This document shows positions 20,869-27,316 of a stretch of DNA of 64,000 nucleotides, one piece after another. The translations under genes were made by a program, and so were the position numbers. This stretch comes from Escherichia coli (lineage in GTDB: Bacteria > Pseudomonadota > Gammaproteobacteria > Enterobacterales > Enterobacteriaceae), in the NCBI RefSeq assembly GCF_001677475.2, contig NZ_CP015229.1; one strand, given 5' to 3'. The notes beneath the pieces were generated by a model that did no database searches, was not told the origin of the DNA, and saw only the letters and a list, made by a program, of their open reading frames with translations. Every line of letters starts with the position of its first letter. Position 1 is the first letter of the stretch.

Positions 20869-22839
20869 TCAGAACGTATACTCGACACCTGCCCAGAAAT
20901 TGCGACCTTCTTCAATAAACCCTTCACTGTAGGCATATTGGGTATCAAACAGGTTATTGACCGACGCATTGACGCTGAAGCCATGACCTAAGGTGTAATC
21001 GGCTCGAATGTGGGTCACCGCAAAACCGGCGGCTTTTTGTGAACCGTCACTGTTGCTGTAGCTGGAGGAACGCGCCTCTTCCGACAGCGTTACGCTTAAC
21101 GGCTCCCATGGTTTGAGTGTCATCCATGCGGTCATTGTCTGCGTTGGCAGATCGGTTATCTTGCCGATGTCTTTGCGTTTGGCGTCAGCGTGGATCAGGG
21201 CGTAGCTCAATCCTACATCCAGTATATTGCTGATTTTCCCCTTAATACCGGCATCCAGACCGCTGTAATCCACCGTGCCGCTGTTCTGGTTTTGAATGGT
21301 ATCGGCATCGATATTGTGCGAGAGGATGGCATCACTCACCCGGTTATAGTAAACGCTGACCTCAAATCCCCAGTCGTGCGTGAAGGCACCATTCCAGGTT
21401 AAATCCACCCCCCGCGCGCGTTCCGGCTTGAGCTGCGGGTTAACAATCGCTATCTGGTTATACGCAGGTTTGGACGTGGTATAGCGTTCTTTCAGCGTCG
21501 GAAAGCGTGTGCGGTCATAGTACGAAAGCGCCAGCGTGTCTTCATTGGCAAAGTGGTATTTCCCCATCACCTGCCAGTTAAAAGCTGACTGATTGTTGTC
21601 GTCATAATGGGTGATGCTGCCATCTTTCTCGTGTTTTTTCGCTTCTACGCTATCGCGCCAGTCATAGCTGATTCCAGCCACGACATCGACATTATCGGCA
21701 GCAGTCCATTGATATTCACTGGCGAGCGACCAGGTCCGATCTTCATAGCGATCGTAAGCGGCGTGCGGCGCACCTTTTTCCCGGTGTACGTCATCTTTCC
21801 AGTTAACGGCAAACGACAGCAGATCGTTTTCACGCACATCGGCTGCCAGTTGTAATCCGGCACCGTCGCTGTAATCGGAGTAATGGCTGTAGCTACCTTT
21901 TTTATTTTTCAAATCAGCCAGCGAGTTGTACATCATCAGCGTATTTTCAAAGGTGTCGCGATACAGCCGACTTTTCAGGGTAAAACGATCGTTTAGTTGG
22001 GTCGTTCCCTGATAATAAAAACTTTCTTTGTCATACTCTGGCCACTGCCAGTAGCGTGATTTTTGACCACTATTTCCGCTGTATGGCGGGTTATCTTTTT
22101 CACCATCCTGCTTAATGTAAGTCAGCGTGTATTCATCGTTTTCGCGCGGTGTAAAACCGAGCTTCACAATGCCGCGTTTATCATCAGCCGATGAATTAAT
22201 CATCTTGCCGTGTTTTCCTGCAATATCATTATTTACACCATGCGGCAGACCGAGAAAATCCTGCTTTAGCTGGCTACCGCTGACTTGGAAATACCCAAGA
22301 TCGCTGCTGGCGGCAAATGAAGCATGCATATCGTAGGCATTGTCCTGGCTACGGCTCCATCCCTGGCGATATCCCAGACTTGCTTCCAGAGGTTTTGTTG
22401 GCTTCTGGGTGGTGATATTAATGGCTCCGCCCATCTGATTAGGCCCCTGAAGCAGCGACGAATACCCTTTGGAAACTTCGACTGCCCCCAGATTGTTGGT
22501 CAGAATCCGCGCCAGATCGAGGTTGCCGTCATAGGGGACATAAATGGGCACACCGTCGAAATAGACCGGCACCTGCCGACTATCAAAGCCACGAACTTTT
22601 ACCTGTTCTTCGTTGCGGCTGCCTGACTTTTGCAGCACCACGCCGGGGACGACACTTAATGCCTGAGCGACATTCTGTTTATCCAGGGCCTTCATGGTGG
22701 GTTGATCGAGAACGGTGGTCGTCGTCGATGATACCGGACTGGACCATACGGTCAGCGTGTCGCTCTCCTGAGCTGCTACGGCCTGCTGGGTAAAGGCAAG
22801 TGATAATGCTGTGCAGAGATAACGTTTTTTGAGTCTCAT
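20869..22839 (-). CDS. TonB-dependent outer-membrane receptor
   Basis: About 656 aa from MRLKKRY (track ORF starts 7 codons earlier); signal peptide, TonB-box-like DTLTVW, C-terminal aromatic residue ...GVEYTF. Not in K-12 at this locus. Confidence 0.8.
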   Translation of the reverse strand: MRLKKRYLCTALSLAFTQQAVAAQESDTLTVWSSPVSSTTTTVLDQPTMKALDKQNVAQALSVVPGVVLQKSGSRNEEQVKVRGFDSRQVPVYFDGVPIYVPYDGNLDLARILTNNLGAVEVSKGYSSLLQGPNQMGGAINITTQKPTKPLEASLGYRQGWSRSQDNAYDMHASFAASSDLGYFQVSGSQLKQDFLGLPHGVNNDIAGKHGKMINSSADDKRGIVKLGFTPRENDEYTLTYIKQDGEKDNPPYSGNSGQKSRYWQWPEYDKESFYYQGTTQLNDRFTLKSRLYRDTFENTLMMYNSLADLKNKKGSYSHYSDYSDGAGLQLAADVRENDLLSFAVNWKDDVHREKGAPHAAYDRYEDRTWSLASEYQWTAADNVDVVAGISYDWRDSVEAKKHEKDGSITHYDDNNQSAFNWQVMGKYHFANEDTLALSYYDRTRFPTLKERYTTSKPAYNQIAIVNPQLKPERARGVDLTWNGAFTHDWGFEVSVYYNRVSDAILSHNIDADTIQNQNSGTVDYSGLDAGIKGKISNILDVGLSYALIHADAKRKDIGKITDLPTQTMTAWMTLKPWEPLSVTLSEEARSSSYSNSDGSQKAAGFAVTHIRADYTLGHGFSVNASVNNLFDTQYAYSEGFIEEGRNFWAGVEYTF

Positions 22840-22864
22840 AGAATAAATTCCGTTTAACAAAGAA

Positions 22865-25296: not shown

Positions 25297-26273
25297 TGGC
25301 GACCTCCGCGTAGCAACAAAAGCAGGAAAAACGGTGCGCCAACAAAAGCGGTCAGAATGCCAAGTGGGATTTCTGTTGTTCCAATGCTGCGTGCCAGCGT
25401 ATCGGTAAGCAGGAGCAGAATAGCGCCAGTACACATTGCCATAGGCAACAGCTGCTGATGGTTATGACCGGTCAACAAGCGGGCAATGTGCGGAACGACC
25501 AGACCGATCCAACCAATTATGCCCGCTATTGCTACCGTGCTGGCGGTGATTAGTGTGGCGCAGACAATCAATCCAAAGCGCAGACGCGTCACGTTCAGTC
25601 CCAGAGAACGGGCTTCGTCGTCGGAAAGCGTGAGTAAATTCATGCGCCAGCGGAGAAAAAACAGGGGCAAGGAGCCTATGAGAATGATCGGTGCAGCATA
25701 GCAGAGATCGCGTAAGGTCACGGTGGACAGTCCCCCCAGCAACCAGAAGGTAATTGACGGTAACTGGGTGTAAGGATCGGCCAGCGTTTTAATTAGCGAT
25801 ATCCCCGCTCCGCACAACGTTCCTAACGCAATGCCTACCAGCACCAGGGTTAAGATCGGATCGTGGCGGGTCACCCGACGCGTAATCAACCAGACGCCCG
25901 CGACCACCATCAGCCCGCCGCAAAATGCGTACAGCTGGATGTAAACAATGGATAATCCCCACAGGATTGCCGCGCAGGCACCAAGTCCGGCACCGGCGGA
26001 GACGCCTAAAATATCCGGTGAAACTAAGGGATTACGCAACATTCCCTGATAGGTGGTTCCGGCTCCTGCCAGCGCCGCGCCCAGTAACAGCGCAGCAAGA
26101 ATACGCGGCACGCGGATTTGCCAGAAGACAATTTGTTCCTGCACAGACACATTTTCTTGACGAAGAATTAGCGCCAGCAGTTGCTGCATATCGAGATGAT
26201 AAGCCCCACTTACGGCGGCAAAAGTGATACTGATAGCTGCCAGCAACAAAATACATCCGTTTACGATTCTCAT
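25293..26273 (-). CDS. FecCD-family ABC transporter permease
   Basis: 326 aa polytopic membrane protein; 1 nt overlap with the binding-protein gene. Confidence 0.8.
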   Translation of the reverse strand: MRIVNGCILLLAAISITFAAVSGAYHLDMQQLLALILRQENVSVQEQIVFWQIRVPRILAALLLGAALAGAGTTYQGMLRNPLVSPDILGVSAGAGLGACAAILWGLSIVYIQLYAFCGGLMVVAGVWLITRRVTRHDPILTLVLVGIALGTLCGAGISLIKTLADPYTQLPSITFWLLGGLSTVTLRDLCYAAPIILIGSLPLFFLRWRMNLLTLSDDEARSLGLNVTRLRFGLIVCATLITASTVAIAGIIGWIGLVVPHIARLLTGHNHQQLLPMAMCTGAILLLLTDTLARSIGTTEIPLGILTAFVGAPFFLLLLLRGGRQ

Positions 26274-27316
26274 TAGCTCGCCACCAATTTTTGATAGTCG
26301 GCATCACTGAGTGAACAATGCCAGAACAGTTGGGCGTAATGCTGCATGTCATTTTTAAACTGGCGATTGATGGCGGGCTCCAGCCAGGCGTGAAGTCTAC
26401 GTAATCCCAGAAGACGGTTGATTCCCGGCGGGGCATCCAGCCAGCCAAAGGGCAAGCCACTTAAAAATAAGATGCGTTGTTCCGCAACGGCTTTCACGCC
26501 CTGCCAGAGAGGATCACGACGAATAAAATCTGCAGTAACGGCCTCCTGAACCAGAATAATATCCGGCTGCCAGCGCAGGAGATTTTCCATGGAAACCTGT
26601 GTCAGGCCGTGGCGATCGGCTATTTGCGCGACGTTGTGCAAACCTAATAATTCCGCCGCCTCGGTATGCAACGAACCCTGTAAGCCCGTTTCCAGCCCTC
26701 GGGGACCGCGCGCAGCATAAAAGCGCAGGTTAGCGGCGGGTGAGGTGGCGAATGCCTGAGCTTCACCAACGAAGTGGCTGGCGAGATTGGCTTGTTCTGC
26801 GGCGCGGTGCTCTTCGCCTAACGTTTTGCCAAGCGTTGTTAACTGTTCTGCTGATTGCGCCAGTTTTCCGTTAAGCAATAACCAGGGGATTTGTGTCTGT
26901 TCGCTAACCTGCCGTGCCTGGGAGATCCAGGTTTCATCCGTATTGCCGCAATCAACGACCAAATCGGGATGTAACGCCATAAGCCCTTCCAGCGAGAGTG
27001 TGCTGGCGCGCCCGGCGAGTCGTCCCAGCCTGGGTAACTGGCGAATGTGCTCTGGCAATGGAATTAATGCCTGACGGGCAAAATCAAAAGAGGAAAAACC
27101 GACCATTTTTTCTGGCGCGACAGCCAGCAATAGCAAATCGGCGGGCGCGCCTGCGCTGACGATGCGTGTAATGTTTTGGGCTTCGGGAAGAGATTGCGAA
27201 GCAAAACGATTAACTGTTTGTGAAAAGGACGGTAGAGACTGCAGGAGCAGGGTAGATGCTAGTGCCTGCGCAAACGTCCGTCTGGTTATGGGCATGGTGA
27301 ACATCCTGAAAAGCAA
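26273..27316 (-). CDS. Periplasmic substrate-binding protein (siderophore/cobalamin type)
   Basis: 347 aa with N-terminal signal sequence (start may be the internal MPITRRTFAQ); first gene of the minus-strand operon. Confidence 0.7.
   Translation of the reverse strand: MLFRMFTMPITRRTFAQALASTLLLQSLPSFSQTVNRFASQSLPEAQNITRIVSAGAPADLLLLAVAPEKMVGFSSFDFARQALIPLPEHIRQLPRLGRLAGRASTLSLEGLMALHPDLVVDCGNTDETWISQARQVSEQTQIPWLLLNGKLAQSAEQLTTLGKTLGEEHRAAEQANLASHFVGEAQAFATSPAANLRFYAARGPRGLETGLQGSLHTEAAELLGLHNVAQIADRHGLTQVSMENLLRWQPDIILVQEAVTADFIRRDPLWQGVKAVAEQRILFLSGLPFGWLDAPPGINRLLGLRRLHAWLEPAINRQFKNDMQHYAQLFWHCSLSDADYQKLVAS

What the first reader, a model, noticed from the sequence alone, without database searches (positions are those of the whole stretch)
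20869..27316. Six-gene metal-chelate uptake cluster with ModD and a SAM methyltransferase inserted between ymgE and treA
A minus-strand operon with overlapping or near-overlapping genes (binding protein, FecCD permease, ATPase, methyltransferase, ModD-like, TonB-dependent receptor) occupies a site that in K-12 holds only ycgY. The transporter components are typical of siderophore, haem or cobalamin import, but the embedded methyltransferase and QPRTase-fold ModD are not standard siderophore-uptake parts. They may modify or process the imported substrate, which I cannot identify from sequence.
Basis: partly seen in the sequence, partly recalled or inferred. Interest (0 to 1): 0.55.

Follow-up and report, generated by a model that had tools for sequence, protein, structure and literature searches.

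The report
Molybdenum-regulated TonB-dependent uptake operon
The six-gene cluster is real and is already listed in pathogenic E. coli as a "putative iron uptake" locus, but it carries a perfect, widely conserved binding site for the molybdate sensor ModE and its transporter is closest to a known molybdate importer, so it is more likely a molybdenum-scavenging system that K-12 lost by deletion.

Summary
Six co-directional, overlapping or near-overlapping minus-strand genes lie between ymgE and treA: binding protein, FecCD permease, ATPase, SAM methyltransferase, ModD and a TonB-dependent receptor.

The cluster is already named in the literature as prrA-modD-yc73-fepC (O-island 55 / S-loop 83 of O157:H7). 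It is called "possibly iron uptake", and I found no defined substrate. It occurs in 2131 of 5426 complete E. coli genomes.

- **Not an insertion.** The same locus sits at the same site in E. albertii and Citrobacter. K-12 still carries the last 24 nt of the receptor gene as a deletion scar.
- **ModE box, not Fur box.** I found no convincing or conserved Fur box. A 20/20 match to the E. coli ModE operator consensus lies 23 nt upstream of the first gene. Equivalent boxes precede the operon in about ten genera.
- **Molybdate-importer relatives.** The permease and ATPase are closest to Haemophilus MolBC, a molybdate/tungstate type II importer that also neighbours modD. In other taxa ModD sits beside modA-type transporters or Fe-only nitrogenase genes.

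Best reading: a ModE-repressed, TonB-dependent molybdenum (or tungsten) acquisition operon. ModD and the methyltransferase would be coupled cytoplasmic processing enzymes of unknown chemistry. Regulation and substrate are inferred, not shown.

The parts
27318..27345 (-). ModE-operator-like palindrome ATCGCTATATA-TGCAAG-TATATATCGAT, ending 23 nt upstream of the binding-protein ATG. It is the predicted control site of the operon.
   Evidence: It matches 20/20 specified positions of the E. coli ModE consensus ATCGNTATATA-N6-TATATANCGAT (consensus from PMC545781; scoring). It is the only match in the 64-kb window, with 0.01 expected by chance. The proven K-12 modA operator scores 16/20 under the same scoring. 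Equivalent boxes scoring 16-19/20 lie upstream of the orthologous gene in Citrobacter, Serratia, Enterobacter, Proteus, Morganella, Providencia, Erwinia and Affinibrenneria.
26273..27295 (-). Periplasmic substrate-binding protein (340 aa) with a twin-arginine signal (MPITRRTFAQ...). It belongs to the class that serves type II importers.
   Evidence: ORF. Best solved relative by sequence is 4pag (97 bits); MolA HI_1472 scores 36 bits. The AlphaFold model has pLDDT 86. Its nearest folds are 4pag (TM 0.80), TM0189, then MolA 3psa at rank 4 (TM 0.67). The RRxF motif is conserved in alignment A4.
25293..26273 (-). FecCD-family (type II) ABC permease, 326 aa
   Evidence: NCBIfam BtuC/FecD/FhuB-type models all score below equivalog cut-offs. 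Best solved match is the H. influenzae MolB permease HI1471 at 217 bits, against FhuB 173, HmuU 164 and BtuC 143.
24538..25296 (-). ABC ATPase, 252 aa. Its GTG start overlaps the permease stop.
   Evidence: The best importer match among solved structures is HI1470 MolC at 126 bits. RefSeq orthologues are 759 nt.
23716..24528 (-). Class I SAM-dependent methyltransferase (historical name yc73), 270 aa. It is intact here.
   Evidence: Pfam Methyltransf_25/31/12/11. No NCBIfam model reaches its cut-off. The model has pLDDT 90.9, and its nearest folds are small-molecule N-/O-/C-methyltransferases at TM about 0.5-0.6. It lies immediately upstream of ModD in 45 loci.
22865..23719 (-). ModD, a quinolinate-phosphoribosyltransferase-fold protein, 284 aa
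   Evidence: TIGR01334 scores 503 bits (cut-off 179). NadC TIGR00078 scores 136 bits, below its cut-off of 198. Alignment to M. tuberculosis QPRTase keeps the TRK, HR, Glu and Asp positions but has Phe163 for Lys172 and Lys94 for Arg105 (invariants).
20869..22839 (-). TonB-dependent outer-membrane receptor (historical name prrA), 656 aa. It has a signal peptide, a TonB-box-like DTLTVWS and a C-terminal ...GVEYTF.
   Evidence: siderophore, haem and B12 receptor models all score far below cut-off. Only the plug aligns to solved receptors. An exact E. coli protein is on record. The C-terminus is conserved across genera.
20869..20892 (.). The last 24 nt of the receptor gene (AGVEYTF-stop). K-12 also retains these bases at its empty site.
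   Evidence: The K-12 alignment runs to 20892 and resumes at 28300, with 43 unrelated bases in between.

Best explanation
This is an ancestral enterobacterial operon for acquiring molybdenum, or its analogue tungsten, switched on when molybdate is scarce.

**Proposed mechanism**
- Molybdate-bound ModE binds the perfect operator just upstream of the first gene and represses the operon, as it does at modABC.
- When molybdate falls, the cell makes a TonB-energised outer-membrane receptor. The receptor captures the molybdenum species, either the free oxyanion or a chelated form.
- A Tat-exported periplasmic binding protein and a MolBC-like type II ABC importer then carry that species into the cytoplasm.
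- ModD (a phosphoribosyltransferase-fold protein) and the translationally coupled SAM methyltransferase act in the cytoplasm on the imported species or on a co-substrate.

**Shown**
- The gene content and its conservation.
- The operator sequence and its conservation.
- The similarity to MolBC.
- The recurring association of ModD with molybdate transporters.

**Inferred**
- ModE binding and repression.
- The identity of the substrate.
- The chemistry of ModD and the methyltransferase.
For: 1. **Operator.** The site at 27318-27345 matches 20/20 specified positions of the published E. coli ModE consensus. The proven modA operator scores 16/20 and sits at a similar distance from its start codon.
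2. **Conservation of the box.** Across 80 ModD loci (1.53 Mb) there are 79 sites scoring at least 16/20, against 0-5 in block shuffles. Of these, 30 lie upstream of the binding-protein gene, 21 upstream of the receptor gene (a second box in Proteus, Morganella and Providencia) and 7 upstream of modA-like genes.
3. **Transporter relatives.** The permease and ATPase are closest to MolB and MolC among solved structures. MolA is among the four nearest folds of the binding protein. MolBC-A imports molybdate, molB is molybdate-repressed, and molABC adjoins modD (PMC4031551; PMC3928620).
4. **ModD context elsewhere.** In other taxa ModD follows a modA-like gene, a TIGR01581 'Mo_ABC_porter' permease and an ATPase, or sits beside anfHDGK. 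In Geobacter there is a modDABC operon with a ModE site.
5. **Operon conservation.** The six-gene order is conserved at 45-98% identity in about 42 loci from ten genera. A rearranged version in Glaesserella australis carries three ModE-like boxes.
6. **Negative controls.** There is no conserved Fur box and no riboswitch.
Against: - No experiment links this operon to molybdenum. The literature I could search labels it iron uptake, though by annotation only.
- The binding protein is only distantly related to MolA (36 bits, 20% identity). Its closest solved relative, 4pag, has no known ligand, and I could not check the oxyanion-binding residues.
- Molybdate is small enough to cross porins, so the need for a TonB-dependent receptor is not obvious. 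I know of no described TonB-dependent molybdate receptor.
- MolBC-A itself is a low-affinity system, which fits poorly with a scavenging role.
- The simple promoter scan found no clear -35/-10 at the box, so repression rather than activation is inferred from position only.
- The roles of ModD and the methyltransferase are unexplained.
Confidence: 0.6

Rival explanations
1. The literature annotation is right. This is an iron-chelate (siderophore, haem or ferric citrate type) uptake system used under iron limitation, and ModD and the methyltransferase are passengers.
For: The receptor gives its best, sub-threshold scores with siderophore and haem receptor models. The ABC parts hit haem, Fec and Fhu models. 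Papers call the cluster putative iron uptake (PMC1890555; PMC12928451). A weak Fur-like site (13/19) lies at 27346-27364.
Against: No model reaches its curated cut-off. The Fur-like match is at background level: the window holds 30 sites with 6 mismatches. It is not conserved in orthologous promoters, where the best match is 11-14/19 at scattered positions. The conserved promoter element is a ModE box. ModD is co-conserved and elsewhere accompanies molybdate transporters.
Confidence: 0.1
2. The operon responds to molybdenum status, but the cargo is an organic molecule rather than molybdate itself. Candidates are a pyridine-carboxylate or pterin-type compound, or a cofactor fragment salvaged from the gut. 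ModD (phosphoribosyl transfer) and the methyltransferase would convert it in the cytoplasm.
For: TonB-dependent receptors and type II importers normally carry bulky cofactors. ModD keeps the PRPP-side residues of quinolinate phosphoribosyltransferase but differs at substrate-contact positions. The methyltransferase resembles small-molecule methyltransferases. The MTase-ModD pair also occurs without the transporter in Edwardsiella hoshinae, Leminorella and a Pasteurellaceae genome.
Against: ModD also occurs with plain modA-type oxyanion transporters that lack any methyltransferase or receptor. MolA, a relative of the binding protein, binds the bare oxyanion. No candidate molecule is indicated by any hit.
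Confidence: 0.15
3. ModD and the SAM-dependent enzyme make a small secreted molybdenum-binding compound (a 'molybdophore'). The receptor and ABC importer take it back up, by analogy with opine-metallophore operons that combine a SAM-using enzyme, a second enzyme, a receptor and a transporter.
For: Two enzymes are embedded in a receptor/importer operon under a metal-sensing operator. The analogy to staphylopine/pseudopaline-type operons is from my own knowledge.
Against: No exporter gene is conserved in or next to the operon. The methyltransferase is a pseudogene in O157:H7 while the transport genes stay intact. ModD occurs with simple oxyanion transporters elsewhere.
Confidence: 0.08

Closest known systems
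prrA-modD-yc73-fepC cluster of uropathogenic E. coli CFT073, equal to O-island 55 / S-loop 83 (ECs1693-ECs1699, Z1961-Z1966) of E. coli O157:H7
   Same: It is the same locus. Gene order is identical, DNA identity to O157:H7 is 97.8%, and the flanks are ymgE and treA. ExPEC and AIEC strains carry it as 'GR 9'.
   Different: This window's allele differs by about 2% from every one of the 2131 complete-genome copies. It has an intact methyltransferase, which is split in O157:H7. It keeps ycgY and one more ORF next to the cluster, as in E. albertii. The literature proposes iron uptake; the sequence evidence here points to ModE and molybdenum.
Haemophilus influenzae MolBC-A (HI1470-HI1472), the type II molybdate/tungstate ABC importer, with adjacent modD (HI1473)
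   Same: MolB and MolC are the best solved matches of the permease and ATPase. The binding protein shares the fold subgroup of MolA. modD is adjacent. MolBC-A shows molybdate-dependent repression, and this operon has a predicted ModE operator.
   Different: Identity is modest: orthologous Pasteurellaceae permeases are about 40% identical and MolA about 20%. The Haemophilus locus is not described with a TonB-dependent receptor or this methyltransferase. MolBC-A is a low-affinity system.
E. coli modABC operon and the ModE regulon
   Same: A ModE operator sits immediately upstream of the first gene, at a similar distance from the start codon. The predicted logic is repression when molybdate is sufficient.
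   Different: ModABC is a type I importer with a ModA-fold binding protein and no outer-membrane receptor or accessory enzymes. The operator here matches the consensus better (20/20) than the modA operator does (16/20).
modABCD / modDABC operons (Rhodobacter capsulatus, Geobacter sulfurreducens) and Pasteurellaceae modA-like/permease/ATPase/modD operons
   Same: They share the ModD family (TIGR01334) next to a molybdate transporter, often with a ModE-type box.
   Different: Those operons use type I oxyanion transporters and lack the receptor and the methyltransferase.
TonB-dependent receptor plus type II importer systems: BtuB/BtuFCD (cobalamin), FecA/FecBCDE, ChuA/ChuTUV (haem)
   Same: The overall architecture and energy coupling are the same.
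   Different: No cobalamin riboswitch, no Fur box and no FecA-type signalling extension were found. All substrate-specific models score far below cut-off.

Membership tests
ModD (NCBIfam TIGR01334) | Full-length match above the curated cut-off | tested here: met
   503.3 bits against a cut-off of 178.85, covering residues 2-278.
Quinolinate phosphoribosyltransferase NadC | Match above the curated cut-off and a complete quinolinate-binding residue set | tested here: not met
   TIGR00078 scores 135.7 bits, below its cut-off of 198.4. In the alignment to 1qpn, Lys172 aligns with an invariant Phe163 and Arg105 with Lys94. TRK, HR, Glu and Asp are kept. Which residues contact quinolinate is from my own knowledge.
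TonB-dependent receptor | Plug and barrel homology, an N-terminal TonB box and a C-terminal aromatic residue | tested here: met
   Generic TonB receptor models match end to end (residues 45-663), but every substrate-specific model is below cut-off. DTLTVWS follows the signal peptide, and the protein ends ...GVEYTF.
Type II ABC importer (FecCD/BtuCD/MolBC class) | FecCD-family permease, a dedicated ATPase and a class III (Peripla_BP_2 fold) binding protein | tested here: met
   The binding-protein model falls among type II importer binding proteins.
MolBC-A molybdate/tungstate importer | Permease and ATPase closer to MolBC than to other characterised type II importers | tested here: met
   HI1471 scores 217 bits against the next best FhuB at 173. 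HI1470 is the best importer ATPase at 126 bits.
MolBC-A molybdate/tungstate importer | Binding protein orthologous to MolA with an oxyanion pocket | tested here: inconclusive
   The sequence match is partial (36 bits). MolA is the fourth nearest fold (TM 0.67, 20% identity), and the nearest is 4pag, which has no known ligand. Pocket residues were not examined.
MolBC-A molybdate/tungstate importer | Transports molybdate or tungstate | not testable with these tools
   This needs binding or uptake assays.
ModE regulon | Operator matching ATCGNTATATA-N6-TATATANCGAT in the promoter region | tested here: met
   20/20 at 27318-27345, with 0.01 expected per window. Conserved in orthologous promoters. 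The modA positive control scores 16/20.
ModE regulon | ModE binds the site and transcription responds to molybdate | not testable with these tools
   No expression or binding data were found in the searchable literature.
Fur-regulated iron-chelate uptake system | Fur box in the promoter and a receptor or transporter matching an iron-substrate equivalog | tested here: not met
   The best Fur match is 13/19 in the window and 11-14/19, unconserved, in orthologues. All iron-specific models are below cut-off.
Cobalamin uptake (BtuB/BtuFCD) | Cobalamin riboswitch and BtuB/BtuC equivalog matches | tested here: not met
   No Rfam hit at E <= 1 in 20000-29500. BtuB scores 79.5 and 70.4 bits against cut-offs of 600 and 836. 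BtuC scores 236 bits against 461.
Horizontally inserted genomic island | Atypical composition, mobility genes or repeats, and absence from the same site in sister taxa | tested here: not met
   G+C is 50-56%. No integrase or IS lies within 20869-27345. The same site is occupied in E. albertii and Citrobacter. K-12 keeps a 24-nt remnant.

The most novel reading that the evidence does not exclude
Pathogenic E. coli and many other Enterobacterales possess a TonB-dependent molybdenum (or tungsten) acquisition pathway, which has not been described before. It would be a ModE-repressed outer-membrane receptor and type II importer that captures a chelated or host- or microbiota-derived molybdenum species. 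ModD (a phosphoribosyltransferase) and a dedicated methyltransferase would release or process the metal. This would finally give ModD a function and would re-assign a long-listed 'iron' virulence-associated locus to molybdenum nutrition.
Probability: 0.3. Interest if true: 0.8.

Novelty: new variant of a known kind. Interest (0 to 1): 0.58.

Why it matters
Molybdoenzymes (nitrate, DMSO and TMAO reductases, formate dehydrogenases) drive Enterobacteriaceae blooms in the inflamed gut and urinary tract. Even so, molybdenum uptake is thought of only in terms of ModABC and non-specific sulfate-type transporters.

This locus has been counted among iron systems of O157:H7 and ExPEC since 1998. If it is really a ModE-controlled, TonB-dependent molybdenum system, three things follow:
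- ModD would be placed in a testable pathway.
- Part of the difference between K-12-like and pathogenic lineages would be explained.
- A surface-exposed receptor linked to anaerobic respiration in the host would be identified.

The prediction is cheap to test with a promoter fusion with and without molybdate, and with and without modE.

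Tried and rejected
- **Fur box.** I scanned the promoter and 18 orthologous promoters against GATAATGATAATCATTATC. Only background-level, unconserved matches appeared.
- **Riboswitches (cobalamin, Moco).** No Rfam hit at E <= 1.
- **Simple sigma-70 and terminator scan.** Nothing above shuffle expectation and no clear promoter at the box.
- **Literature.** Ten full-text searches found only two papers that name the cluster, and neither is functional. Locus-tag searches (Z1961...) returned noise. 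Guyer 1998, Tirado-Lee 2011 and Studholme & Pau 2003 are not held. 'modD' in methanogen and Helicobacter papers refers to an unrelated ATPase.
- **First ModD alignment (61 sequences).** It was too diverse for the locus scan, so I used an 11-sequence alignment instead.
- **Methyltransferase fold search.** It returned many small-molecule methyltransferases at TM about 0.5-0.6 with no specific assignment. The weak CpaM, ArsM and TPMT sequence hits are far below cut-offs.
- **Mobility.** The nine 'plasmid' records carrying the cluster are non-mobilizable and up to 4.9 Mb long, so they look like mislabelled chromosomal pieces.
- **ORF199.** No Pfam or NCBIfam family, and no similarity to YcgY.
- **Scoring label error.** My scripts print '/22', but the consensus has 20 specified positions.

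Full report
**What is there**

Window 20869-27316 contains six minus-strand ORFs.
- TonB-dependent receptor, 20869-22839
- ModD, 22865-23719
- class I SAM methyltransferase, 23716-24528
- ABC ATPase, 24538-25296
- FecCD permease, 25293-26273
- periplasmic binding protein, 26273-27295

The starts given here follow the RefSeq orthologues in O157:H7. Junctions are 1-4 nt overlaps or gaps of 9 and 25 nt, as expected for one operon. The flanks are emtA, ycgR and ymgE on one side and treA on the other. All five proteins I looked up are exact matches to E. coli records ANO88556-ANO88561, so the window is E. coli.

**Is it known?**

Yes, as a locus. A comparative study of O157:H7 lineages describes ECs1693-ECs1699 (Z1961-Z1966; S-loop 83 / O-island 55). 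[quoted passage not shown] 1998 (PMC1890555). A 2026 genome paper lists the same cluster as region GR 9, shared by ExPEC and AIEC strains and 'possibly mediating iron uptake' (PMC12928451). None of my ten full-text searches found a functional study or a defined substrate. The library is incomplete, so this absence is not proof.

**Distribution and history**

An 8.4-kb query matched 5330 of 5426 complete E. coli genomes. Only 2131 carry the cluster, at 97-98% identity. K-12, BL21, HS and O104:H4 have ymgE-ycgY-treA instead.

The cluster is not an insertion.
- Its G+C (50-56%) is ordinary.
- In E. albertii the order is treA-ycgY-ORF199-[six genes]-ymgE-ycgR-emtA, exactly as in this window.
- In eight Citrobacter species it is treA-[six genes]-ymgE-ycgR-emtA.
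- K-12 aligns with the window up to 20892 and again from 28300, with 43 unrelated bases in between.
- Bases 20869-20892 are the last seven codons and the stop of the receptor gene (AGVEYTF*). That C-terminus is conserved as GRN(F/Y)W(A/L)G(V/I)EY(T/K/Q)F across genera.

K-12-type strains therefore deleted the cluster together with ORF199. Cluster-bearing E. coli such as O157:H7 instead lack ORF199 and ycgY, with 258 unrelated bases in their place. No complete E. coli genome in the collection has the undeleted arrangement seen in this window.

**Conservation of the operon**

A scan of one genome per species with a ModD alignment returned 80 loci. The order binding protein-permease-ATPase-methyltransferase-ModD-receptor is kept, at 45-98% protein identity, in about 42 of them. 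These come from Escherichia, Citrobacter, Serratia, Enterobacter, Symbiopectobacterium, Proteus, Morganella, Providencia, Erwinia and Affinibrenneria. ModD and the methyltransferase are therefore integral parts of the operon, not passengers.

The methyltransferase-ModD pair also occurs alone in Edwardsiella hoshinae, Leminorella and a Pasteurellaceae genome. A 64%-identical methyltransferase stands alone next to an IS element in Shewanella.

**The regulatory element**

The best Fur match there is 13/19, which is background: the window has 30 sites at that level. Orthologous promoters show only 11-14/19 at scattered positions. No riboswitch is present.

Instead, 27318-27345 reads ATCGCTATATA-TGCAAG-TATATATCGAT on the coding strand. 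The E. coli ModE consensus quoted by Rodionov et al. is ATCGNTATATA-[N6]-TATATANCGAT (PMC545781). The site matches all 20 specified positions.

- **Chance expectation.** The core pattern has one match in the window, with 0.01 expected.
- **Positive control.** The established modA operator of K-12 scores 16/20. It is the only site scoring 13 or more in 8 kb, and it ends 17 nt before the modA ATG. The site here ends 23 nt before its ATG.
- **Enrichment across loci.** Across the 80 loci (1.53 Mb) there are 79 sites scoring at least 16/20, against 0-5 in twenty block shuffles.
- **Position of those sites.** Thirty lie just upstream of the binding-protein gene. Twenty-one lie in the ModD-receptor spacer of Proteus, Morganella and Providencia, where that spacer is long. 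Seven lie upstream of modA-like genes.
- **O157:H7.** It has CGATATATA-TGTAAA-TATATAGCG at the same place.

I noticed the palindrome before I retrieved the published consensus. The statistic is therefore partly post hoc. The cross-genus conservation and the modA control are independent of that.

**The proteins**

- **Permease and ATPase.** The best solved relative of the permease is HI1471 (MolB) at 217 bits, ahead of FhuB (173), HmuU (164) and BtuC (143). HI1470 (MolC) is the best importer match for the ATPase.
[quoted passage not shown] It works as a low-affinity molybdate importer in H. influenzae, and molB is repressed by molybdate (PMC4031551). molABC lies next to modD (HI1473) (PMC3928620).
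- **Binding protein.** It has a conserved twin-arginine signal. Its model (pLDDT 86) is closest to 4pag (TM 0.80, ligand unknown). TM0189 comes next, then MolA at rank 4 (TM 0.67, 20% identity). This is suggestive, not conclusive.
- **Receptor.** It matches no substrate-specific receptor model and no solved receptor beyond the plug.
- **ModD.** It is a clear TIGR01334 member and fails the NadC cut-off. Against M. tuberculosis QPRTase it keeps the TRK, HR, Glu and Asp positions. It has an invariant Phe where Lys172 lies and Lys for Arg105. That suggests an active fold with a different substrate; the roles of those residues are from my own knowledge.
- **Methyltransferase.** It forms a well-conserved family of its own. 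Its model (pLDDT 91) resembles small-molecule methyltransferases without a specific match.

**ModD elsewhere**

Where the six-gene operon is absent, ModD appears in two settings.
- In Pasteurellaceae, Gilliamella and Yersinia alsatica it follows a modA-like binding protein, a TIGR01581 'Mo_ABC_porter' permease and an ATPase.
- In three diazotrophic Enterobacterales genomes it lies beside the Fe-only nitrogenase genes anfHDGK. Synthesis of that enzyme is normally repressed by molybdenum (the repression is from my own knowledge).

Geobacter has modDABC with a ModE site. Glaesserella australis carries a rearranged set around ModD: receptor, ATPase, a 34%-identical methyltransferase and two type II importer sets, with three ModE-like boxes.

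**Interpretation**

The best-supported reading is a ModE-controlled, TonB-dependent molybdenum or tungsten acquisition operon.

- **Shown:** gene content; synteny; deletion history; the operator sequence and its conservation; closest relatives.
- **Inferred:** that ModE binds and represses; that the cargo contains Mo or W; that ModD and the methyltransferase process it.

Difficulties remain. Molybdate should cross porins unaided. MolBC-A is low affinity. The binding protein is only a distant relative of MolA. These keep open two alternatives: a bulkier Mo-chelate, or an organic cargo under molybdenum control. Iron uptake, the literature label, has no specific sequence support here.

**Verdict**

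It is wrong on the direction of the evolutionary event and on the likely metal. The locus is already catalogued. What appears new is the ModE operator and the molybdenum assignment, which make it a TonB-dependent variant of the MolBC-A/ModD kind of system.

Noticed in passing
window 27372-28878 (ORF 27615-28214 +, ycgY 28361-28801 +): A low-G+C (37-43%) segment with an unannotatable 199-aa ORF and ycgY lies between the cluster and treA. The combination cluster + ORF199 + ycgY is found in E. albertii (69% and 62% protein identity) but in none of 5426 complete E. coli genomes. In those genomes the cluster and ycgY are mutually exclusive. The window therefore shows the undeleted ancestral Escherichia arrangement.
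   Followed up: partly
window 20869-20892; K-12 locus L002 1870-1936: K-12 retains the last 24 nt of the receptor gene (AGVEYTF-stop), followed by 43 bases that match nothing in the window. This is a deletion scar inside an 'intergenic' region of K-12.
   Followed up: yes
L001 (O157:H7 RM8376) 7217-8029; also 1818-3865 and 11132-12816: In O157:H7 the methyltransferase is a pseudogene with an internal stop, annotated as two ORFs (ECs1695/ECs1696) in Sakai, while the other five genes are intact. In the same strain ycgR is split by an IS3 element and treA is frameshifted.
   Followed up: partly
L021-L032, L035-L053, about 10905-11080 in each locus: Proteus, Morganella and Providencia have a long ModD-receptor spacer that holds a second ModE-like box directly upstream of the receptor gene. 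The receptor may therefore be separately molybdate-controlled in those genera.
   Followed up: partly
L052, L055, L056 (Enterobacterales MAGs, Acerihabitans arboris): ModD lies next to Fe-only nitrogenase genes (anfH, anfD) and a modB-like permease, with strong ModE-like boxes nearby (up to 20/20 in L052 at 2270).
   Followed up: no
L003 (Shewanella avicenniae) 10001-10816: A 64%-identical homologue of the methyltransferase stands alone beside an IS transposase, with no ModD or transporter within 10 kb.
   Followed up: no
L033 and L034 (Affinibrenneria salicis, the same scaffold at 143-164 kb and 911-932 kb): Two copies of the whole operon give identical hit coordinates and identities. This is either a large recent duplication or an assembly artefact.
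   Followed up: no
L004 (contig assigned to a Collinsella MAG): A 3.2-kb contig carries ATPase-methyltransferase-ModD at 98-99% identity to E. coli. It is almost certainly E. coli contamination of an actinobacterial bin.
   Followed up: no
window 20500-28900 versus all complete E. coli genomes: The cluster allele in this window is no more than 97.9% identical to any of 2131 complete-genome copies, while its flanks reach 98.3-98.7% to K-12. The strain appears to belong to a lineage not represented in that collection.
   Followed up: no
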